Below are positions 19,583 through 29,103 of a DNA stretch of 64,000 bases, piece after piece (within the stretch, counting starts at the first letter, position 1; the number at the start of each line of letters is the position of its first letter). Position numbers and translations under genes: made by a program. The stretch comes from Gemmatimonadota bacterium (GTDB lineage: Bacteria > JBHIER01 > G020348925). Location: assembly GCA_020348925.1 (NCBI GenBank), contig CP070758.1:3487688-3551687 (forward strand), in the 5' to 3' direction. Under the pieces are notes generated by a model that was not told where the DNA came from, did not search any database, and saw only the letters and a list, made by a program, of their open reading frames with translations.

Positions 19583-19984
19583 CTATTCCACAATGTGAGA
19601 TTTGAGATTGGTGTGTTCTGAAATCAGTTCGAAGTGATGATCAGAGTGTAGGAGAAGACACTTGGAGTTCAATGCCACTGAGGCGATAAGAACATCAGTT
19701 GATGGGATGGTCAGACCTTTCCGCCGAAGTTCGAAGGAGAGTCGGCTCGCAGAAAGCCAAACACGGTCTGTTACAGGCAAATAGTGGAGTGCCTGGAGCT
19801 CCTCCAAGAGCTCAACGTACTCTTTGGGCGTACGAGTCCCGCCAAGAAGCTCCACAAGAATCATCCCACACGTGGCGGCTGATCCTTCAGAAATGATTCT
19901 CCCTACCTCCTTTTTTGGAGCTTCCGGTGCCCCCTCCTTGAAAACCAAGATCCATAATGACGTATCGATAAGAACAGGACTCAT
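19583..19984 (-). CDS. vapC: VapC PIN-domain toxin
   Basis: LIDTS, ELLGG, DVLIA and SDHHF acidic PIN residues. Overlaps the antitoxin stop (ATGA). Confidence 0.9.
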   Translation of the reverse strand: MSPVLIDTSLWILVFKEGAPEAPKKEVGRIISEGSAATCGMILVELLGGTRTPKEYVELLEELQALHYLPVTDRVWLSASRLSFELRRKGLTIPSTDVLIASVALNSKCLLLHSDHHFELISEHTNLKSHIVE

Positions 19985-20184
19985 TCATCCGCCCGCATTT
20001 TTTCCAACTCTTTATGGGTGAGGTTCAGATTGAAATTTCCCAATCTGTTCACCAGCCTTTTTCTCCGTTTCGCATGAATAATCTCTCGAAGTGACATATT
20101 GATAAGTTCCCTTTTTGTCTTGGCCTTCGTCAACTTCATTGCTTTCTGGAGCAGGTCATCATCTATGTCAATAGTCGATCTCAA
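19981..20184 (-). CDS. vapB: VapB antitoxin
   Basis: MRSTIDIDDDLLQKAM..TKRELI..SL. TTG start after AAGGAGGTGA. Directly upstream of vapC. Confidence 0.88.
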   Translation of the reverse strand: MRSTIDIDDDLLQKAMKLTKAKTKRELINMSLREIIHAKRRKRLVNRLGNFNLNLTHKELEKMRADE

Positions 20185-20497: not shown

Positions 20498-21847
20498 CTA
20501 TTTCATGAGCACCATCCGTCTGGTGTCAGTGTCATTGTCTGTTTCGATTCGATAGAAATAGACACCGGCAGGCAATTGGGTCGCATCCCAGGAAATACTG
20601 TAATAGCCGGCCTCCAGCGCATCATCCACAAGATCACCAACAATTTGCCCCAGCATGTTGTACACCCTCAGCCTCACCTGACCCTCCTCCGGCAAACCAA
20701 ACTCGATGGTGGTCTCAGGATTGAAGGGATTGGGGTAGTTCTGGGACAGGACAAATTCCTCAGGCACCCCGGCTCCTGCCTTGGCCACCAACCTTTCACG
20801 CGAAGGCCGCCTCACCTCCAGCGTCACGTCGTCCGTCTTCGTCGCGCTCCCATCATCACCCACAATAGTCAATAGATAGTCCCCTACACCCACACTGCGC
20901 GTCACCTGGACCACCAACATCACCGTCTCTGATCCCCGGGCCGGCACCGTCACCACAGCACCAGGATCGAAGTAGTACCGCCTCGTCCCAGGCGGCAAGC
21001 CCGTCACACTCAAGCTCACCGAACTGGTGTAGCAATCGACGGAGCTGACCGTCACATCGTAGGTGGCCGTCCCCAGAAACCCTCCAAACCACTCCACCCT
21101 GGCCACAGCCGGGACTGCACTCACGTCGAAATCGGACGAGCCTCCGAAGTCCGGATCGTTCTGATCAACAAGCCCGTCGCAGTCGTTGTCCTGACCGTCA
21201 CACACTTCAGCGTTACCGGGGTAGTTATTGGGGTTGGCATCGTCACAATCACACACGGTTCCGGCCCCGTCGCCGTCACCATTGGCCTGATCCGGATTGA
21301 ACGTGCCCGGGCAGTTGTCTGTGGCATCATCCACGCCATCCCCGTCAGTATCCGTGAAAGTGGTGACGACATTGTATGCCGGGGAGGTATTCTTGAAGTG
21401 GATCCAGCCGATATTCTCCCCCCAGGCATAGCCGTCAAAGCTGCCGGTGAGAGGATCGATGGTTACTCCACCATATGTGGGATTGAAGTTGATCCAGCCT
21501 ACGTTGGTGCCCCAGGCGTAACCGGACAGGTTGCCTGAGACATCCCTGTTGACACCGTAATTCGTCGCTGAGGTGTTGTCGTAGGAGTGACCACCGTTGC
21601 TCTCATGGGTGCCCAGTCTGATCCAGCCGATGTTCTCGGCCCAGGCGTAACCCTCCAGGTGGTCGGCGTAGACCGTCACGCCGCCGTTGACTGGCCGGAA
21701 ATTGAGCCAGCCCACGTTGGTCCCCCAGGCCCACTTGTCCACCGGGTCGATGTTGCCGGTCTGTGCCTGGAGTACGCCACTTATACTCAGCAGGAGCAGA
21801 GCAGTCAATACGGAATATTTCATGCCCGCTATCATTTTCCTACTCAT
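20498..21847 (-). CDS. Secreted protein: AWxxNxGW repeat domain, TSP3 repeat, putative metal-binding (MopE-like) motif, T9SS-type tail
   Basis: Signal peptide from MSRKM (SD GAGGAGG), four (W/Y)AWxxN(V/I)GW(L/I) repeats, DGDGVDDATDNCP, CDD..YPG.AEVCDGQDNDCDG, QNYPNPFNP. Confidence 0.85.
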   Translation of the reverse strand: MSRKMIAGMKYSVLTALLLLSISGVLQAQTGNIDPVDKWAWGTNVGWLNFRPVNGGVTVYADHLEGYAWAENIGWIRLGTHESNGGHSYDNTSATNYGVNRDVSGNLSGYAWGTNVGWINFNPTYGGVTIDPLTGSFDGYAWGENIGWIHFKNTSPAYNVVTTFTDTDGDGVDDATDNCPGTFNPDQANGDGDGAGTVCDCDDANPNNYPGNAEVCDGQDNDCDGLVDQNDPDFGGSSDFDVSAVPAVARVEWFGGFLGTATYDVTVSSVDCYTSSVSLSVTGLPPGTRRYYFDPGAVVTVPARGSETVMLVVQVTRSVGVGDYLLTIVGDDGSATKTDDVTLEVRRPSRERLVAKAGAGVPEEFVLSQNYPNPFNPETTIEFGLPEEGQVRLRVYNMLGQIVGDLVDDALEAGYYSISWDATQLPAGVYFYRIETDNDTDTRRMVLMK

Positions 21848-21861
21848 AATGTTCCCTCCTC

Positions 21862-22302
21862 TCATCTCAGAGAAAAATGAAAAATCAAACATCGAAAAGC
21901 AAAATGACAGATGAAAATGCAAAATGACCTCTTTCCTTTCAGGGTCAATATGTTCGTTGCGAATATCTTGCTTATTTCATCCTGCTCCTTCAAAAACCAA
22001 TCCACTTCTTTTGCCCCTGCGCGTTTGCTATCCCGGAGAAGAGCAAGCCAGAGTTTACTCTCGTTGGCAGATTTCAATGACGTGTTGAGATAGTTTGTGA
22101 AATCCTTTTTACTGCTTCCCGACTGGCCCCCAATGTAATTCCCAGGAATAATTGCACCACTGCGCAACAGTTGATCTCCAAGTCTTCTGGAAACGTTGTC
22201 CTTTGGCAAGCCATCCAGGAATTCAATGAGCTTTAAAACAAACCTGTACAGCCTCTCCTTGAAATCCTTTTTGAATTTTGCCTTGTCATTTTGCATTTTC
22301 AT
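21862..22302 (-). CDS. Four-helix-bundle protein (TIGR02436 / IVS-encoded-like, Avd structural relative), possibly degenerate
   Basis: FKERLYRF..LP..LGDQLLRSG..NY..S.KDF..SLKSANE..WL.LL. The natural stop seems lost (TGA>TCA relative to the copy at 28427), adding about 21 aa. Confidence 0.8.
   Translation of the reverse strand: MKMQNDKAKFKKDFKERLYRFVLKLIEFLDGLPKDNVSRRLGDQLLRSGAIIPGNYIGGQSGSSKKDFTNYLNTSLKSANESKLWLALLRDSKRAGAKEVDWFLKEQDEISKIFATNILTLKGKRSFCIFICHFAFRCLIFHFSLR
21880..21941. repeat. 62-bp direct repeat, left copy (3' flank of the four-helix-bundle element)
   Basis: 57/62 identical to 28382-28443 by manual alignment. Confidence 0.9.
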
Positions 22303-22324: not shown

Positions 22325-23560
22325 CTACTGTCCTCCGCGCACCGGCCACACGGAGAGAAGGTTGCCCTTATTGTAGACAAACTCACGTAAAAATGGATCA
22401 CAGTCCAGGTTCACGCCCCAGGCGAATTCCGGCAAAGACCAGTAGGTAGTACTCGACCAGTAGATGCCCGGATACACGCCGGTAAAGGCGCGCGGAGTAC
22501 CTGAACAGACCGGCTCTGTTCCTTCCGCTAATGCATATAACTCAGTTTTCGTGGGCAAACGCCAATCGCCAACAACTGAACCATCACTTAGACCTGCATC
22601 CAAAGAATCAGGACACAAAACGCCCACACACCTCTGAGCATCATCATGATTAGTGCAGTCCTCCCACGGCTTTTCTCCACCCCAGTCAGCCTTTTTTAGC
22701 CATACCAAGCATGTCGTCAAATCAGTCACAGTGCCATCCCCATTATCACACCAGCGGGTTCCATTCATGGTGCCTTCGCATGTGCAACCGCCATGAAGAT
22801 TGCCCGATACGTTGAAGATGTTCTTTCCGTTCTTAATGTTGTCGGCAATAAGATCGGCATCGTTGGCCGTAGCTGTTTTCCCGGAATAGAATCCATTCGG
22901 GATGGAGAATGTTCTACTCCCTTCAGGTCCTGAGACGTTGCTGCCTTTCGCCATTGAACCCGTCAGTTCACTACCGTCAACCCAAGCCTTCTTGCCACTG
23001 AGAATATCGCCCGCAGTCGCATCACCGGAGCTGGTATTGACCACATTCGGGTCGCCATCGATGCCGAAGATATTCACTCCGCTCTTGATATTGCCAGCCG
23101 CCAAATCTCCATCCTGGGCTGTAGCCGTCTTTCCCGAATAGATCCCGTCCGGGATTGGAAAAGCCAGCGATCCCTCCGGCCCCAGCACATCGCTGCCTGC
23201 CGCGGCCGTACCTGTTTTCGGCCCCCATTCCCCTGAGGTCAATCCCCAGAAGGTTTTGCCGGACAGGACTTCAGACGCCGTCGCGCCATTGCTATTGTCC
23301 ATAGCTGGGGCTTTACCCATGATCTCGTTCAGGGTGTGCATGGTCGATGTCACCGGCCCGGCGGTGGGTTCGGTAAAGGTGCTCTGCGAACCCGCCGTGC
23401 CGTCGTTCAGGCGGTTGTAGATGTCCTCAAGAGTATAAGAAGATGTAGCACCGGGCGGATTGGTGGGGTCCGTATCCCCGGCATACTCCGACAACGCCAA
23501 AACCCATACGGAAAAAAGAATGAACACTATGGCAGCAAGGACTATGTTTCTCCTACGCAT
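22325..23560 (-). CDS. DUF1566 (Lcl C-terminal, CLec-fold) secreted protein, DGR-target-like (array gene 5)
   Basis: Signal peptide, DNGDGTVTD..LVW, DWRLPT..EL, YWSST..AW.V..NK..VWPVRGGQ. Confidence 0.9.
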   Translation of the reverse strand: MRRRNIVLAAIVFILFSVWVLALSEYAGDTDPTNPPGATSSYTLEDIYNRLNDGTAGSQSTFTEPTAGPVTSTMHTLNEIMGKAPAMDNSNGATASEVLSGKTFWGLTSGEWGPKTGTAAAGSDVLGPEGSLAFPIPDGIYSGKTATAQDGDLAAGNIKSGVNIFGIDGDPNVVNTSSGDATAGDILSGKKAWVDGSELTGSMAKGSNVSGPEGSRTFSIPNGFYSGKTATANDADLIADNIKNGKNIFNVSGNLHGGCTCEGTMNGTRWCDNGDGTVTDLTTCLVWLKKADWGGEKPWEDCTNHDDAQRCVGVLCPDSLDAGLSDGSVVGDWRLPTKTELYALAEGTEPVCSGTPRAFTGVYPGIYWSSTTYWSLPEFAWGVNLDCDPFLREFVYNKGNLLSVWPVRGGQ

Positions 23561-23669
23561 GATCCAACCTCCTTTCCAAATGCGTGGTGAATGGTGAATT
23601 ATGAATCATACAACCTCCTTATGTTATAGATGATTTGGTTGATGTGTTTTCCTTTCATCTCTTATCTAC

Positions 23670-23830
23670 ATCCCCCTAACCCTCATCAAAGGGGGATTTT
23701 TTGTGTGGCCCCCCTTCGAAGGGTAAATTCCAATCTCCCCTTGAGGTTTGCACCCTCCCATTCCCCACTGAGGGGGGGACGAAGGTTGGTAGTCCCCCCT
23801 TGAGGGGGGATTAAGGGGGGTGTTACCCCT
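23670..23830. repeat. Cluster of CCCCCTT(N)AAGGGGG REP-like palindromes
   Basis: Several CCCCC..GGGGG hairpins. Same family at about 26119-26165 and 28727-28927. Confidence 0.75.
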
Positions 23831-23942
23831 ACTCCCTTTCAAAGACCATACATTCATATTCATACATCCATAACCATATTCTCAGAAAAACGGCAAGATC
23901 GAATGTCTTGCGGTATATGGGCAGATGCTCGTATCGGGGCAT
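23829..23942 (-). pseudogene. Truncated DGR accessory-variability-determinant (avd)-like 5' stub
   Basis: ATG 26 nt after the DUF1566 stop reads MPRYEHLPIYRKTFDLAVF(L), continuing ENMV after a 1-nt frameshift. This matches the MAxYEHLPIYKKAxDLxxxxE start recalled for bAvd-like proteins. Not in the ORF track. Confidence 0.7.
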
Positions 23943-23968
23943 ATTTCTCATTAATCAAAATAACCAAA

Positions 23969-24802
23969 TCACTGTCCGGCACGCACAGGCCACACACAGT
24001 AGTTGGCGTAGCCCTTATTGCCGTGGACCACGTCGCCACTAACCGTGTCCACGCCATAGGCGTAGTATGGAAAGGTGTAGAATGAAGTACTAGACGACCA
24101 GTAGCCGGACTGCACATTATCGAACGGACCTGGTCTGCTGGATAGAATATACTCATTTCCATTGGTTATTCCGTCTAATTCATCCACAGTCGGCAGCCGC
24201 CAGTCACCCCACACAGAACCATCTGTGAGAGTAGTACCATCATCTCTTATTTCTGTTAGAGGTCTCATTATTGCGAGATCCCACTCCATCTTGCCACCTA
24301 AATAATTGGCATCTTTCAGCCATACCAAACCCGTGGTCATATCCAGTACCGTTCCATCACCTTGGTCACACCAACGAGTGCCGAAGAAATGAACACCATC
24401 GGAATACATTGTTCCATTGCAGGCTGACCCACCCGCAGATAACGCGCCGGTTTGCAGTCCCCATTCTCCCGCATTCACATTCAGCCCCCAGAATTTCTTA
24501 CCTGCCAAAACTTCGGTAGTTTTGGCACCATAGAGGTTGTTCCTTACCGGGGCAGCATACCAGATGTCGTTCAGGGTGTGCATGGTCGATGTCACCGGCC
24601 CGGTGGTGGGTTCGGTAAAGGTGCTCTGCGCAACCGCCGTGCCATACTTCAGCCGAAGGAAGATCATCTCCAGAGTGGAGGAATATGTAGCGCCGGGCGG
24701 ATTGGTGGGATCCGTGTTCCCGGTATACTCCGACAACGCCAAAACCCATACGAAAAACAGTACGAACGCTACGGCAGAAACAACTATGTATCTCCTACGC
24801 AT
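23969..24802 (-). CDS. DUF1566 secreted protein, DGR-target-like (array gene 4)
   Basis: Shared leader VWVLALSEY..DPT.PPG, DQGDGTVLD..GLVW, DWRLPT..EL, YWSS..VWPVRAGQ. Confidence 0.9.
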   Translation of the reverse strand: MRRRYIVVSAVAFVLFFVWVLALSEYTGNTDPTNPPGATYSSTLEMIFLRLKYGTAVAQSTFTEPTTGPVTSTMHTLNDIWYAAPVRNNLYGAKTTEVLAGKKFWGLNVNAGEWGLQTGALSAGGSACNGTMYSDGVHFFGTRWCDQGDGTVLDMTTGLVWLKDANYLGGKMEWDLAIMRPLTEIRDDGTTLTDGSVWGDWRLPTVDELDGITNGNEYILSSRPGPFDNVQSGYWSSSTSFYTFPYYAYGVDTVSGDVVHGNKGYANYCVWPVRAGQ

Positions 24803-24870
24803 GATCCAGCCTCCTTTTCATTCTAACCCTCCCTGTGAATGGTGAAAAGATACTTGTGTGATATAATTTA

Positions 24871-24918
24871 TATCATTTGAATCCCCGATCGGAGTCGAGG
24901 ACAAGCTTTAGATTTAAG
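24871..24918. repeat. 48-bp post-stop repeat with hairpin
   Basis: 45/48 identical to 27394-27441. Contains the minus-strand stem-loop TCCTCGA-CTCCGA-TCGGGGA. Confidence 0.85.
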
Positions 24919-24921
24919 CGT

Positions 24922-26001
24922 CTATTGTCCACCGCGTACCGGCCACACAGAACAATTGTCATTTTGTTGTATTAAGTCAAAGACTCCCACATCGCCATCA
25001 CTCAGGCTTACGTAATAGAAACCATGTTCACCAGGGTCCAAAGTACTCGTGCAGAAAGGAAGCCCAGTGAATACACTAAACGGATGCCCTGCAGGAAGAG
25101 CAGGTCCACTCTGTGTAAGATCAATCAAACTATGCAGCTCATTCACATTAGGCAGACGCCAGTCGTCGTAACCAGCAAATGAAAAATCGTTGCAGAAGTT
25201 AAGGGCGTCAATAACGCGATGGATTGCATGAGGAGCTCCTTTTGTCCACATCAGGCGGGTCCAGTTGTCGGTGACCGTATCATCACCATGGTCTGTGAAT
25301 CGAGCTCCCGTAAATCCGTAAACAGTATACGCACCACGAACACCAGTGCTCGGCGACCACTCTGGTAATACACCGAGTTGATACTCCCCATCCTGTCCGG
25401 TGCCTTCGCAGGGTATAACCAGACCCTCATCGTTTAAACATTTAGTTACCCCTGTTTTCGGGACTCTTGCTGCTCCGCTGGCTTCAATGAGGGTACCTGA
25501 GACTCCGAAGATGTCAATTCCGCTTCTGATATTTCCCTCCAGCAGGTCTCCATCTTGGGCCGTGGCCGTTTTCCCGGAATAGACACCATCAGGGATTGGA
25601 AAAGCTATCGATCCCTCCGCTCCCAGCACATCGCTTCCTGCCGCGGCTGTTCCTGTTTGTGTCCCCCATTCTCCCGAGGTCAGCCCCCAGAAAGTTTTGC
25701 CACTGAGCACATCCGCTGCGGTAGCGCCATTGGCTTCATCAACAGCAGGGGCTTCCCCCAAGATGTCATTCAGAGTGTGCATCGTCGCTGTGCCCAGTCC
25801 GTCGGTAGGTTCCGTAAATGGTCTCGGTCCATCCTCCGCGCCAGTAACCAAGCGATTATAGATGTCCTCCAGAGAGTAAGAGGATGTAGACCCCGGTGGA
25901 TAGGTGGGATCAGAATCACCAGCATACTCCGACAACGCCAAAACCCATACGGAAAACACGACAAGCACTACGGCAGCAAAGACTATGTGTCTCCTACGCA
26001 T
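24922..26001 (-). CDS. DUF1566 secreted protein (array gene 3, variable region drifted)
   Basis: MRRRHIV start after GGAGG SD, PKTG..GQDG, FTDHGDDTVTD..LMW, GYDDWRLPNVNEL, VWPVRGGQ. Confidence 0.9.
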   Translation of the reverse strand: MRRRHIVFAAVVLVVFSVWVLALSEYAGDSDPTYPPGSTSSYSLEDIYNRLVTGAEDGPRPFTEPTDGLGTATMHTLNDILGEAPAVDEANGATAADVLSGKTFWGLTSGEWGTQTGTAAAGSDVLGAEGSIAFPIPDGVYSGKTATAQDGDLLEGNIRSGIDIFGVSGTLIEASGAARVPKTGVTKCLNDEGLVIPCEGTGQDGEYQLGVLPEWSPSTGVRGAYTVYGFTGARFTDHGDDTVTDNWTRLMWTKGAPHAIHRVIDALNFCNDFSFAGYDDWRLPNVNELHSLIDLTQSGPALPAGHPFSVFTGLPFCTSTLDPGEHGFYYVSLSDGDVGVFDLIQQNDNCSVWPVRGGQ

Positions 26002-26112
26002 GATCCAGCCTCCATTCATATAGGGAATTGTAAATAAAGAACTGTCCAGTATCAATCATGTGACCTCCTTCTGGTATAGATAATTTTGTTGATGCATTTT
26101 CTGTCATCTCTT

Positions 26113-26211
26113 TTACATTCCCCTAACCCCCTTCAAAGGGGGAATTTTTGTGTGGCACCCCTTCAAATCATACGCCTCACGAAAAATGGGCAGGTGTTCA
26201 TACCGGGCCAT
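26113..26211 (-). pseudogene. Truncated avd-like 5' stub fused to a REP palindrome
   Basis: Reads MARYEHLPIFREAYDL, then runs into the TTTGAAGGGG REP spacer. Lies downstream of DUF1566 gene 26325..27161 and a GC hairpin. Confidence 0.72.
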
Positions 26212-26267
26212 TCTGTCTACTCATCCTTATCACTTTATTGATTCAATGCTCCTCGAAATCCTCGCGG

Positions 26268-26290
26268 GCAAGTGGGGACACCCCCCTTGC
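26268..26290 (-). promoter_or_regulatory. GC-rich hairpin 34 nt after the variable-region-like 3' end (candidate DGR target-recognition cruciform)
   Basis: GCAAGGGGGG-TGT-CCCCACTTGC, 9 of 10 bp paired, between the target stop and the avd stub. Confidence 0.55.
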
Positions 26291-26324
26291 ATCCCCCCAA
26301 CAAAGTATCAAAGTACCAAAGACT

Positions 26325-27161
26325 CTACTGTTCTCCACGCACCGGCCACACAAATGGGACGCTGTAGCTCTTATTGAAGTGGTGCACGGAGCCATCGGAC
26401 ATGACCACGATCCAGGCGTAGTTCGGAAGGTCCGCTAAGGTAGTACTCGACCAGTAGCTGCCCAACTCCACGCCGGAAAAGGCGCGCGGAGTATCTGAAC
26501 GGACTTGCTCTGTTCCGTGCGTTAAATCATACAACTCTGTTTTCGTAGGCAACCGCCAATCGCCTTCTGTAGAACCATCGCTCAAGTCTGCACCAGCACT
26601 TCCAGCCTTCAAAATGCCTGCTCGCGTATGAGCATCATCATAACCAATGCCGTCCACCCACATTTTTTGCCCACCCCAGTCAGCCTTTTTCAACCATACC
26701 AGGCATGTGGTCAAATCTGTCACTGTCCCATCTCCATTATCACACCACCGGGTTCCATTCATGGTGCCGGTGCATGTGCAACCGCCATGAAGACTACCGG
26801 TTTCCTCCCCCCAGTCACTGCCATCACTACCGTCGGTGCGTAAACTCCAATACTTCTTGCCATGTGCCACTTCCGCTTTAGTGGCTCCATAGGTGTTGTC
26901 CGCAACTGGCGCCTTGTCCATGATGTCATTCAGAGTGTGCATCGTCGCTGTGCCCGGTCCGTCGGTAGGTTCCGTAAATGGTCTCGGTCCATCCTCCGCG
27001 CCAGTAACCAAGCGATTATAGATGTCCTCCAGAGAGTAGGAGGATGTAGACTCCGGTGGATAGGTGGGATCAGAATCTCCAGCATACTCCGACAACGCCA
27101 AAACCCATACTACTAACAGGACAAACATTACGGCGGCAAGGACTCTGTGTCTGCTTCGCAT
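26325..27161 (-). CDS. DUF1566 secreted protein, DGR-target-like (array gene 2)
   Basis: MRSRHRV start after AAGGAGG, CDNGDGTVTDLTTCLVW, DWRLPTKTEL, YWSSTT..AW.V.M..G.V...NK..VWPVRGEQ. Confidence 0.9.
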   Translation of the reverse strand: MRSRHRVLAAVMFVLLVVWVLALSEYAGDSDPTYPPESTSSYSLEDIYNRLVTGAEDGPRPFTEPTDGPGTATMHTLNDIMDKAPVADNTYGATKAEVAHGKKYWSLRTDGSDGSDWGEETGSLHGGCTCTGTMNGTRWCDNGDGTVTDLTTCLVWLKKADWGGQKMWVDGIGYDDAHTRAGILKAGSAGADLSDGSTEGDWRLPTKTELYDLTHGTEQVRSDTPRAFSGVELGSYWSSTTLADLPNYAWIVVMSDGSVHHFNKSYSVPFVWPVRGEQ

Positions 27162-27442
27162 GATGTAACCTCCTTTCATTTTTCCCTTATCATGAGTCAC
27201 CTAAGCTGAGCGATTTAATAAGCATACTTTGCATAAATGTCATTCTGAACTGAGCAAAGCGAAGTGAAGAATCTTACTCGAATGGTGGGAGATTCTTCGC
27301 CCGATAAATCGGACTCAGAATGACAGTTACGTCAGACTTTGCGCCAGGAATCGCTCAATTCGAATTTCATTTAGATTTCAATTCCATTCTGTTTATCATT
27401 TGGATCCCCGATCGGAGTCGAGGACAAGCTTGGGATTTAAGG

Positions 27443-28348
27443 TTACTCTCCTCCGCGTACACGCCACAACAAGTAGAATTCGGTTTTAACGTAGAAGTCC
27501 ACGGAGCCATCTTCCAAGTCCACGGCCCAGGCGTAGACCGAAGTCGGAACGTCCTCGAACGTAGTACTCGACCAGTAGAGGCTCGACTGCACGCCGGTAA
27601 ACGGATGACCGGCTGGCAGATAAGGTGAGGAGAGGCCTGGATCAAAAAGGCTCCGCAACTCATTTATATTCGGCATCCGCCAGTCGCTGTAACCAGCAAA
27701 TGAAGATTTGCTTTCGGAAATGGCCATTTCCCAAGGAGTAGGCGGCCAGTAGGCACTTTTTGTCCACATCAAGCCGGTCAGATTGTCCGTCACCGTCCCA
27801 TCCCCATTGTCCGTAAACTGCGCCGTTCCATCATAACACTTGAACGACGCCCGATTATAACCCCCGAAGGAAGAACCAGGCCATGAAAGCACCACGACGG
27901 GCAGACCCCCATTCCGGTAGTACCCGTCATCTCCTGTGACATACGAGACAACCTGCCCGGTTTTCGCTACATATTGAGGCGCTGTGCCCGTTTGCAATCC
28001 CCAACTACTGCCACCACTGCCGTCGGTGCGTAAGCTCCAATACTTCTTGCCACATGCCACATCCGCTTTGGTGGCTCCATCTGTGTTATCCGCAACCGGG
28101 GCCTTGTCCATGATCTGATTCAGAGTGTACATGGTACTCCCCGGCCCACTGGTGGGTTCCGTAAAGGTACTTTGTGTACCGTCCGCTCCGGTGTCCAGCC
28201 GGTTGTAGATGTCCTCAAGAGTATAAGAAGATGTAGCACCGGGCGGATTGGTGGGGTCCGTGTTCCCGGCATACTCCGACAACGCCAAAACCCATACGAA
28301 AAACAGAACGAACATTACGACAGCAAGGACTATGTTTCTCCTACGCAT
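27443..28348 (-). CDS. DUF1566 secreted protein, DGR-target-like (array gene 1)
   Basis: KTGQ..GDDG, FTDNGDGTVTDNLTGLMW, GYSDWRMPNINEL, YWSSTT..AWAV..LWRVRGGE. Confidence 0.9.
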   Translation of the reverse strand: MRRRNIVLAVVMFVLFFVWVLALSEYAGNTDPTNPPGATSSYTLEDIYNRLDTGADGTQSTFTEPTSGPGSTMYTLNQIMDKAPVADNTDGATKADVACGKKYWSLRTDGSGGSSWGLQTGTAPQYVAKTGQVVSYVTGDDGYYRNGGLPVVVLSWPGSSFGGYNRASFKCYDGTAQFTDNGDGTVTDNLTGLMWTKSAYWPPTPWEMAISESKSSFAGYSDWRMPNINELRSLFDPGLSSPYLPAGHPFTGVQSSLYWSSTTFEDVPTSVYAWAVDLEDGSVDFYVKTEFYLLWRVRGGE

Positions 28349-28381
28349 GATCCAACCTCCTTCCTATTTAACAGAAATTGA

Positions 28382-28478
28382 AAAAATCAAACATCAAAAA
28401 GCAAAATGACAGATCAAAATGCAAAATCATTTCTTTCCTTTCAAATATTTGGGGTCACATCTTTGATCTTTGATCTTC
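28382..28478 (-). mobile_element. Internally deleted copy of the four-helix-bundle element (flanks plus last codons LKGKK*)
   Basis: Minus strand: AAGATCAAAGATCAAAG 5' flank, TTG AAA GGA AAG AAA TGA, then the 3' flank matching 21880-21941. Confidence 0.7.
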
Positions 28479-29103
28479 TCTCTGTTTTGTCAATCTTATC
28501 CCTAACACCCCCCTGTTATTCCGAAAAAAGCCAGGCCGCATCGAAGATCTGTCAATGGTAACAAACCAGATTTCTCCACTCATCCCGCCTTGGCGGGATT
28601 CCGTCGAAAGGACACATCATTTGTCCCACTCGTATCCCCGAATCCTTGGCCCCTTGAATCCTCTATATTAAGGGTCACCGCCTTGATCTTTGATCCTTTC
28701 TCTGTCATGTCACTCTTTTTCTTAACACCCCCCTGTAGTCCCCCCATGATATGGGGGACGATGAGAAGTCCACCTTTCGTATAGAAACCACCTCTAAAAG
28801 TTCCCCGTTTGTAAAGGAGCCACACCTCAAGTCCCCCTTTCGTAAAGGGGGATTTAGGGGGATTTTATAAAGGAAATGTTTTTTCATTGAAACAATCCCC
28901 TCTAACTCCCCTTTGAAAAAGGGGGGAACATTTTCCGCATCAACACAAGATATTCCCTCATCATGGTGGAATTGTTGTTATGAAAATAACCCCTGAGACC
29001 CTCAGATAACGTCCGTGATACAGAAAGCTATATACTTTTTCCGTTCTCCGTTTTCCCTTAGATTCCCCCGAATCCTTGAACCCTTGAATCCTTTAATTAC
29101 AAC

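What the first reader, a model, noticed from the sequence alone, without database searches (positions are those of the whole stretch)
22325..28348. Tandem library of five DUF1566/CLec genes with DGR-type variable-region signature but no RT or TR in the window
Seen: five co-oriented paralogues share a signal peptide and an invariant 27-nt stretch (plus strand atactccgacaacgccaaaacccatac, VWVLALSEY), and end in (V/L)W(P/R)VRxx(Q/E). In the last ~140 nt of four genes the scaffold codons (TAC TGG TCG..ACT, GCC, GTG, AAT AAG, GTG TGG CC) are largely conserved. The codons between them differ at positions 1-2 while position 3 stays C/T. Gene 26325 vs gene 27443: AAC/GTC, ATC/GCC, GTC/GAC, CAC/GAC, CAC/TTC, TTC/TAC, AAT/GTT. 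Gene 22325 has GGC, AAC, GAC, GTC, TAC and gene 23969 has GGC, GAC, GTC, CAC, GGC. This is the reverse of neutral drift. Established: diversity-generating retroelements mutate adenines of AAC/AAT codons in a template repeat, producing NNC/NNT codons in C-terminal CLec-fold domains such as DUF1566. Inference: this is a chromosomal multi-target array, either diversified in trans by a remote RT/TR or a frozen archive of DGR products. Gene 24922 has lost the pattern and looks retired.
Basis: partly seen in the sequence, partly recalled or inferred. Interest (0 to 1): 0.92.

Follow-up and report, generated by a model that had tools for sequence, protein, structure and literature searches.

The report
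Orphaned DGR-written lectin gene array
Five neighbouring genes for secreted lectin-like binding proteins still carry the codon fingerprint of a mutagenic retroelement (a DGR), but the genome no longer holds that retroelement, so they look like a frozen panel of once-hypervariable binding sites.

Summary
Five intact minus-strand genes all carry Pfam Lcl_C/DUF1566 and share an invariant 27-nt stretch that occurs only in these five genes. Homologous loci in two unrelated MAGs hold complete DGR cassettes of target, bAvd, TR and RT. I used the AAY codons of their template repeats as an external site map. At those columns, four window genes have NNY codons in 16-18 of 19 cases, against 10-15 of 29 elsewhere. 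Among four-fold-degenerate codons the count is 26/28 ending in C/T, against 27/68 and 302/586. Amino-acid selection cannot produce that. Gene 24922 lacks the signal. Two genes are followed by 16-20-codon stubs of a bAvd gene. The single-contig 5.04-Mb genome has no RT, no TR-like copy and no intact bAvd. The VRs are identical in contigs from four runs of two studies, while a nearby spacer varies. Verdict: relic, probably formerly trans-targeted, DGR targets expanded by duplication and recombination. The "frozen archive" reading is supported. Active trans diversification is not.

The parts
27443..28348 (-). Lcl_C/DUF1566 protein gene (301 aa). The VR-equivalent is about 27446-27592.
   Evidence: ORF. 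Pfam PF07603 E 8.8e-26. AF2 model plus Foldseek top hit Legionella Lcl C-terminal domain 8q4e_A, E 4.6e-5. NNY 16/19 at TR-AAY columns vs 10/29 elsewhere, p 8e-4.
26325..27161 (-). Lcl_C/DUF1566 protein gene (278 aa from ATG; an upstream GTG at 27200 is possible). The VR-equivalent is about 26328-26471.
   Evidence: E 1.4e-19. NNY 17/19 vs 10/29, p 1.6e-4; NNC 14/19 vs 6/29, p 3.6e-4.
26164..26211 (-). 16-codon stub of a bAvd gene (MARYEHLPIFREAYDL...), about 110 nt downstream of the stop of gene 26325.
   Evidence: tblastn of the L058 bAvd, residues 1-16, 62.5% identity. Translation of the spacer.
24922..26001 (-). Lcl_C/DUF1566 protein gene (359 aa from ATG; an upstream TTG at 26055 is possible). 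Its C-terminal segment has lost the NNC pattern.
   Evidence: E 3.8e-20. NNY 14/19 vs 16/29, p 0.16; NNC 4/19.
23969..24802 (-). Lcl_C/DUF1566 protein gene (277 aa). The VR-equivalent is about 23972-24115.
   Evidence: E 9.4e-16. NNY 18/19 vs 15/29, p 0.0014. Orthologue in metagenome locus L128: 78.7% nt identity over 936 nt, including the downstream spacer.
23883..23942 (-). 20-codon stub of a bAvd gene (MPRYEHLPIYRKTFDLAVFL...), about 27 nt downstream of the stop of gene 23969.
   Evidence: tblastn of the L058 bAvd, residues 1-20, 60% identity, E 0.002. The same stub and the same following sequence occur in L128.
22325..23560 (-). Lcl_C/DUF1566 protein gene (411 aa) with extra internal repeats. 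The VR-equivalent is about 22328-22477 and is interrupted by indels.
   Evidence: E 2.9e-14. NNY 16/19 vs 12/29, p 0.0034. Not significant in the cruder whole-core NNC test (p 0.16).
21862..22302 (-). Complete four-helix-bundle gene of the 23S_rRNA_IVP family (146 aa), in the position where a DGR would carry avd.
   Evidence: Pfam PF05635 E 2.1e-14, with no bAvd PF22296 hit. One of 4 PF05635 copies in the genome. BLASTP against the L059 bAvd is not significant (E 30).
20498..21847 (-). Neighbouring gene for a T9SS-sorted protein with N-terminal GW-type repeats. A homologue sits next to the DGR target in L059.
   Evidence: Por_Secre_tail E 6e-11. 55% identity over 151 aa to L059:8472-9071, E 2e-51. 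Its 5' leader 21829-21941 resembles 28330-28443 upstream of gene 27443 (79% over 114 nt).
28271..28297 (-). One of five copies of the invariant 27-nt core (VWVLALSEY). The others are at 27084-27110, 25924-25950, 24725-24751 and 23483-23509.
   Evidence: exactly five exact copies in the genome; none with up to 3 mismatches elsewhere.

Best explanation
The array is a set of five secreted or membrane-anchored C-type-lectin-like (Lcl_C/DUF1566) ligand-binding proteins. The C-terminal binding surfaces of at least four of them were written by a diversity-generating retroelement, and they are now orphaned and static. Shown: (a) the domain and fold; (b) the adenine-mutagenesis footprint, meaning NNY codons exactly where homologous DGR template repeats carry AAY; (c) stubs of the DGR accessory gene bAvd behind two of the genes; (d) no RT, TR or intact bAvd anywhere in the assembled genome; (e) no VR variation between contigs of four metagenome runs. 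Inferred history: a canonical cassette (target-bAvd-TR-RT, as in L058 and L059) gave rise to extra targets by duplication of 'target plus the first ~20 codons of avd'. These were diversified in trans by a shared or similar TR. The TR/RT core was then lost, or never entered this chromosome. The VRs have since drifted. The array was remodelled by tandem duplication and by homologous recombination through the conserved 5' module. Function today (inferred): a hard-wired panel of four or five different binding specificities on the cell envelope, possibly working with the neighbouring T9SS GW-repeat protein.
For: All five genes hit Lcl_C. The AF2 C-terminal domain has pLDDT 76-93 and its best PDB match is Legionella Lcl C-terminal domain 8q4e_A (E 4.6e-5), followed by C-type lectins. 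Homologues are common: 3229 proteins at E<=1e-3. Two homologous loci hold full DGRs with A-biased TR/VR mismatches: L058 15/16 and 17/18, L059 19/21. With TR AAY columns from those two loci as the site map, NNY is 16/19, 18/19, 17/19 and 16/19 at A-sites against 12/29, 15/29, 10/29 and 10/29 elsewhere. This matches bona fide VRs, which score 17/19, 17/19 and 18/18. Four-fold-degenerate codons give 26/28 Y at A-sites, against 27/68 at non-A sites (p 7e-7) and 302/586 in the rest of the genes (p 5e-6). Counting each distinct codon once per column gives 20/22 vs 15/35, p 2e-4. None of 20000 random column sets reach the observed 67/76. Synonymous identity at four-fold codons is higher in the VR (49/66) than in the adjacent scaffold (70/159, p 3e-5), as expected after homogenisation by a common TR. 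The bAvd stubs are shown. The stub and its flank are shared with L128, yet the VRs of gene 23969 and L128 differ mostly at codon positions 1-2. The third-position share of differences is 10/47 in the VR vs 64/145 in the rest, p 0.006. So diversification continued after the avd truncation. Absence of the engine. Static VRs: contigs of X1, X2, X3 and X4 show 0 differences over the VRs they cover, while X2 has 5 SNVs in the spacer 23764-23806.
Against: The runs were available only as assembled contigs, which drop minority variants, so low-level diversification cannot be excluded. The genome is one contig, but plasmids or phages of the same cell would not be in it (completeness 96.3%). Only two external TRs define the A-site map. 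The four genes are paralogues, so their codons are not fully independent; the unique-codon count addresses this only in part. Non-A positions differ by 17-31% between the window VRs, against about 1% in the active L058 system. This could mean long drift or several different ancestral TRs, and I cannot tell which. Whether the DGR core was ever on this chromosome is not shown. Only 3 of the 121 homologous loci fetched hold an RT within the available flank.
Confidence: 0.75

Rival explanations
1. The array is still being diversified, in trans, by a DGR core (RT, TR, Avd) on an unassembled plasmid, phage or other replicon of the same cells.
For: In two other genomes, Lcl_C targets with an avd stub (L081, L112) coexist with DGR-like RTs elsewhere in the genome, so remote targeting of stub-bearing genes is plausible. 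Related genes differ in a DGR-like way after the stub arose. Extrachromosomal elements would not appear in a one-contig chromosome.
Against: No RT, TR or bAvd is found in 5.04 Mb. VRs are identical in contigs from four runs of two studies, while a nearby spacer carries SNVs. No TR-like contig was laid on the VRs at >=85% likeness. Non-A positions differ by 17-31% between the VRs, which is incompatible with ongoing homing from one TR. A 17-nt VR scaffold word found only three seed-only matches in IMG/VR, and none had an RT.
Confidence: 0.1
2. The genes are ordinary paralogues that diverged under diversifying selection on the binding site, with gene conversion keeping the scaffold alike. No DGR was ever involved.
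For: Binding sites rich in Y, F, H, N and D give NNY codons automatically. Tandem paralogues do undergo gene conversion, as shown by the mosaic structure and a chimeric contig joint. Gene 24922, and the coarse test for gene 22325, show no NNC excess.
Against: The excess holds for four-fold-degenerate codons, where the amino acid does not constrain the third base (26/28 vs 27/68 and 302/586). It falls on the columns where independent TRs carry AAY (0 of 20000 random column sets match). C is preferred over T inside the core, against the genes' own usage. bAvd stubs lie directly downstream of two genes.
Confidence: 0.05
3. The genes were acquired horizontally as already-diversified targets, with avd stubs, from DGR-bearing donors. 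This lineage never had the RT/TR core.
For: The VR scaffold is very alike at nucleotide level across phyla: 74-78% identity of genes 26325 and 27443 to the L058 TR at non-A positions. The family is spread over many phyla. The only same-family genome searched (G001) has no homologue.
Against: Five paralogues share a lineage-specific 5' module and the 27-nt core. Related metagenome loci (L128, L141, L130) hold similar genes and arrays whose VRs differ in DGR fashion. Both point to diversification within this wider lineage rather than a single import.
Confidence: 0.1

Closest known systems
DGR target proteins of the DUF1566/DUF823/Fib_succ_major class ('category d', CLec2 VRs; type example Legionella LdtA), as described in Wu et al. 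2018, PMC5758913 (passages read)
   Same: The Pfam domain is the same, the VR lies at the extreme C-terminus of a C-type-lectin-like fold, and the protein has an N-terminal export signal. The VR scaffold aligns codon by codon with the TRs of two active DGRs of this class.
   Different: No RT, TR or intact Avd is found in the genome. The VRs are no longer alike at non-adenine positions. There are five tandem copies rather than one or two targets flanking a cassette.
Canonical DGR cassettes in L058 (Thermodesulfovibrionales MAG) and L059 (Desulfococcaceae MAG)
   Same: The target architecture is homologous: the conserved ~120-aa N-terminal module plus Lcl_C. L059 has the same neighbouring GW-repeat gene. 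A bAvd start follows the target.
   Different: Those loci carry full bAvd (PF22296), a TR with A-biased mismatches, and an RT with RVT_1 plus a C-terminal MutS_I match. The window keeps only 16-20 codons of bAvd.
Nostoc PCC 7120 paralogue all3226 with 'remnant TR-VR homology' and no nearby RT (Vallota-Eastman et al. 2020, PMC7517822; passages read)
   Same: A DGR target paralogue is left without its diversifier. The authors propose removal of diversification components once a good variant is selected.
   Different: That genome still has two DGRs. Here the whole genome lacks any RT and a five-gene tandem array is orphaned. The targets there are of a different class.

Membership tests
Diversity-generating retroelement (complete, active system) | DGR-clade reverse transcriptase | tested here: not met
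   PF00078 gives 0 matches in the own genome while the control genomes ring. tblastn with two DGR RTs gives a best E of 0.24. A six-frame scan for [LIVMF]GxxxSQ ... Y[x]DD gives 0 hits, and the control finds both RTs.
Diversity-generating retroelement (complete, active system) | Template repeat matching the VR except at adenines | tested here: not met
   blastn with word size 7 of the last 200 nt of each gene against the whole genome hits only the paralogues themselves. The TRs of L058 and L059 hit only the window VRs.
Diversity-generating retroelement (complete, active system) | Accessory variability determinant (bAvd) | tested here: not met
   Only stubs of 16 and 20 codons remain. PF22296 has no match above cut-off in the genome. 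The adjacent complete gene is PF05635, not bAvd.
Diversity-generating retroelement (complete, active system) | Target gene with a C-terminal VR in a C-type-lectin-like fold | tested here: met
   Lcl_C in all five genes. The AF2 model of gene 27443 matches 8q4e_A and C-type lectins. The VR scaffold aligns to two TRs.
Diversity-generating retroelement (complete, active system) | Adenine-specific mutagenesis footprint (NNY codons at template AAY sites) | tested here: met
   Met in 4 of 5 genes. Not met in gene 24922.
Diversity-generating retroelement (complete, active system) | Ongoing hypervariability of the VR within populations | tested here: inconclusive
   Contigs of 4 runs show no VR differences, but contigs hide minority variants and raw reads were not available.
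Lcl_C / DUF1566 (PF07603) | Match to the family model above the curated cut-off (34.9 bits) | tested here: met
   53.8 to 90.9 bits for the five genes.
23S_rRNA_IVP (PF05635) four-helix-bundle proteins | Match above the curated cut-off (33.8 bits) | tested here: met
   ORF 21862-22302 scores 54.1 bits. Whether it can act as an Avd was not testable.

The most novel reading that the evidence does not exclude
The first ~20 codons of avd that travel with the target genes may not be debris. They may be a conserved tag or cis-element marking genes as remote DGR targets. Stubs that break at nearly the same point occur here and in Nitrospira and Desulfobacteraceae MAGs that do have an RT elsewhere. 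After the diversifier was lost, this array may work as a germline-like cassette library. In that reading, homologous recombination through the invariant 27-nt 5' core reshuffles fixed binding modules; one chimeric form was seen in two runs.
Probability: 0.2. Interest if true: 0.6.

Novelty: new member of a known kind. Interest (0 to 1): 0.42.

Why it matters
DGR surveys start from the reverse transcriptase, so genomes that keep DGR-written genes after losing the engine go unseen. This locus is a clean example in a closed genome. It gives a simple, portable test for finding such fossils: a four-fold-codon NNY excess at template-AAY columns. That makes it possible to ask how often hypervariable binding proteins become fixed, how long the footprint lasts, and whether tandem duplication and recombination take over once targeted mutagenesis stops. 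It also cautions against counting such arrays as active DGR targets.

Tried and rejected
1. Relatives of the genome. Only one same-family genome (G001) was on hand and it has no homologue of the array (0 matches). Its RVT_1 hits are only 23-26% identical to DGR RTs, and no VR- or TR-like DNA lies beside them. This was uninformative.

2. IMG/VR scan with a 17-nt VR scaffold word. It returned 3 loci, all seed-only (17-18 nt), with no RT.

3. The adjacent 23S_rRNA_IVP gene as the DGR's Avd. It is PF05635, not bAvd, and is not similar to the L059 bAvd (E 30). It is one of four copies in the genome. I do not count it as DGR evidence.

4. The second Lcl_C locus (genome 3404170-3404996). It belongs to a different subfamily and is split over two overlapping ORFs. 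It has no bearing on the array.

5. Pfam on the conserved N-terminal module and on the internal repeats of gene 22325. No family was found at E<=1.

6. The TR/VR self-comparison of 80 genome loci found clean A-biased pairs in only 2; the L052 hits are tandem simple repeats. The 41 metagenome loci were screened only by tblastn for RT and Avd, not for TR/VR pairs.

8. Depth figures and uncovered bins of the laid contigs were not used as evidence.
Full report
WHAT IS THERE. The interval holds five intact minus-strand genes: 22325-23560, 23969-24802, 24922-26001, 26325-27161 and 27443-28348. Each ends in a Pfam Lcl_C (DUF1566, PF07603) domain scoring above the curated cut-off, with E from 3e-14 to 9e-26. 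They share an N-terminal hydrophobic helix and a conserved ~120-residue module for which Pfam has no family. A 27-nt stretch encoding VWVLALSEY is identical in all five and occurs nowhere else in the genome. An AlphaFold model of gene 27443 has mean pLDDT 72.8, with 76-93 over residues 170-300. Its best PDB match is the Legionella Lcl C-terminal domain (8q4e_A, E 4.6e-5), followed by C-type lectin-like proteins. The flanking genes encode T9SS-sorted surface proteins.

IS THE CODON PATTERN REAL? Yes. In the C-terminal core, NNC codons make up 48-60% in genes 23969, 26325 and 27443, against 23-26% in the rest of each gene (p 1e-4, 3e-4, 0.02). Among NNY codons, C is preferred over T, against the genes' own usage (p 0.004-0.015). 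Genes 22325 and 24922 are not significant in this coarse test. Between those three genes, third-position differences are the rarest class in the core and the commonest class elsewhere.

AN EXTERNAL SITE MAP. The family is large, with 3229 proteins at E<=1e-3. The C-termini of homologues look like classic DGR variable regions. I fetched 80 genome loci and 41 metagenome loci. A self-comparison of the 80 genome loci found two with clean TR/VR pairs whose mismatches fall on template adenines. These are L058 (15/16 and 17/18) and L059 (19/21). Both are canonical cassettes of target, bAvd (PF22296), TR and RT (RVT_1). I aligned the window's C-terminal codons to these two TRs. Columns were classed by whether either TR carries AAC or AAT. 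At these 19 A-site columns, genes 22325, 23969, 26325 and 27443 have NNY in 16, 18, 17 and 16 cases. At the 29 other columns they have 12, 15, 10 and 10 (p 0.0034, 0.0014, 1.6e-4, 7.7e-4). The genuine VRs of L058 and L059 score 17/19, 17/19 and 18/18. Gene 24922 scores 14/19 vs 16/29 (p 0.16).

The decisive control restricts the count to four-fold-degenerate codons, where the amino acid leaves the third base free. This gives 26/28 ending in C/T at A-sites. The comparison values are 27/68 at non-A sites (p 7e-7) and 302/586 in the rest of the four genes (p 5e-6). Counting each distinct codon once per column gives 20/22 vs 15/35 (p 2e-4). None of 20000 random column sets reaches the observed 67/76 NNY. 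This is a mutational fingerprint, not a product of selection on residues.

FURTHER DGR TRACES. tblastn with the bAvd proteins of L058 and L059 found the first 20 and 16 codons of a bAvd gene just downstream of genes 23969 and 26325. The stubs lie at window 23883-23942 and 26164-26211, and homology stops abruptly after them. Metagenome locus L128 is an orthologue of gene 23969, with 78.7% nt identity over 936 nt. It has the same stub followed by the same sequence. Yet the two VRs differ mainly at codon positions 1-2. The third-position share of differences is 10/47 in the VR vs 64/145 elsewhere (p 0.006), and non-synonymous codons are 26/45 vs 66/222. Gene 26325 against L130 behaves likewise (5/37 vs 107/221, p 5e-5). 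Gene 27443 against L141 is not significant (p 0.16). So stub-bearing genes were still being diversified after the avd truncation, which means in trans. Synonymous identity at four-fold codons between the window paralogues is higher in the VR (49/66) than in the adjacent scaffold (70/159, p 3e-5). That is expected if one TR, or similar TRs, once homogenised them.

THE ENGINE IS MISSING. The genome is one contig of 5,038,017 bases with 96.3% completeness. RVT_1 gives no match, while the control genomes ring. Two DGR RTs give no tblastn hit better than E 0.24. A six-frame motif scan gives 0 hits, while the same pattern finds both control RTs. The last 200 nt of each gene match only the paralogues. 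bAvd has no match above cut-off. The complete four-helix-bundle gene behind gene 22325 belongs to PF05635, is one of four such genes in the genome, and is not detectably similar to bAvd. I do not count it as a DGR part.

IS IT STILL VARYING? Eight public runs hold parts of the stretch. Four were laid, but only as assembled contigs. Contigs covering the VRs show no differences. This holds for gene 22325 in X1, X2 and X4, for gene 23969 in X1 and X2, for gene 26325 in X1 and X2, and for gene 27443 in X2 and X3. The X2 contig covering gene 23969 carries five SNVs in the spacer 23764-23806, so strain variation exists but avoids the VRs. Contigs hide minority variants, so this is evidence against brisk diversification, not proof. 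Non-adenine positions differ by 17-31% between the window VRs, against about 1% between the two VRs of the active L058 system. This also argues against ongoing homing from one TR.

ARRAY HISTORY. The genes are mosaics. The 5' modules of 24922 and 26325 are near-identical. The Lcl_C scaffolds of 26325 and 22325 are alike. The middle repeats of 24922 and 22325 match, along with their upstream spacers (76% over 666 nt). Genes 27443 and 24922 share a ~50-nt downstream element, and genes 26325 and 23969 share the avd stub. This suggests duplication of a two-gene unit. One chimeric contig joint (23471 to 27078, next to the 27-nt core) appears in X1 and X2. It is consistent with recombination between the 5' modules.

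COMPARISON WITH WHAT IS KNOWN. DUF1566-class proteins are an established DGR target category, with Legionella LdtA as the example (PMC5758913, passages). A target paralogue with remnant TR-VR homology and no nearby RT has been noted in Nostoc PCC 7120, together with the idea that diversification components are removed once a variant is selected (PMC7517822, passages). Term searches inside PMC10907252 and PMC8144416 for loss, remnant or inactivity found only an active/inactive classification by SNVs. The listings showed no paper describing an RT-less genome that retains an array of DGR-written targets. Supplements could not be read. I therefore file this as a new member of a known kind: orphaned DGR targets of the DUF1566 class.

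VERDICT. The DGR origin is well supported, and active diversification in this genome is not. Confidence in the relic reading is 0.75. Interest is moderate. The value lies in a clean fossil case, a portable test for such fossils, and the recurring avd stub.

Noticed in passing
L081:10490-10555, L112:10425-10568, L128:857-931, L130:2665-2730: bAvd genes truncated after about 22-48 codons lie behind Lcl_C genes in other lineages too (Nitrospira and Desulfobacteraceae MAGs, and metagenome contigs). L130 is cut by the contig end. The genomes of L081 and L112 hold DGR-like RTs elsewhere. The similar breakpoints may mean that the start of avd travels with duplicated targets for a reason.
   Followed up: partly
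window 20498-21847 and L059:8472-9071: The T9SS-sorted GW-repeat protein next to the array has a 55%-identical homologue directly upstream of the DGR target in L059. Both protein families start their mature part with a G-[DN]-x-D-[PS] motif right after the signal sequence. The gene's leader (21829-21941) resembles that of gene 27443 (28330-28443; 79% over 114 nt).
   Followed up: partly
window about 27231-27360: The spacer behind gene 27443 contains a ~130-nt element with about 25 copies in the genome. Contig depth is very high there in all four runs. It looks like a MITE- or REP-like repeat.
   Followed up: partly
window 23600-23860 and 28400-28900: The spacers are full of short G5/C5 hairpin-forming repeats (CCCCC..GGGGG units). 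One such unit directly follows each avd stub, so these repeats may have mediated the deletions.
   Followed up: no
L058:1716-3194 and L059:11449-12930: Both DGR reverse transcriptases of this target class carry a C-terminal match to MutS domain I (PF01624, E 6e-6 and 8e-7).
   Followed up: no
genome C1:3404170-3404996 (locus L002): A second Lcl_C locus of another subfamily, with a dockerin-like tail, is split over two overlapping ORFs (208 and 409 aa). This may be a frameshift.
   Followed up: no
window 23471 / 27078: Contigs in runs X1 and X2 join these two points with 5 other letters between, skipping 3606 bases. This is a minority form in which the 5' module of gene 26325 is fused to the body of gene 22325, so array copy number seems to vary in the population.
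   Followed up: no
window 19583-20184: Two small overlapping minus-strand ORFs (133 and 67 aa) upstream of the T9SS gene look, from recall only, like a PIN-domain toxin and its antitoxin. This was not tested.
   Followed up: no
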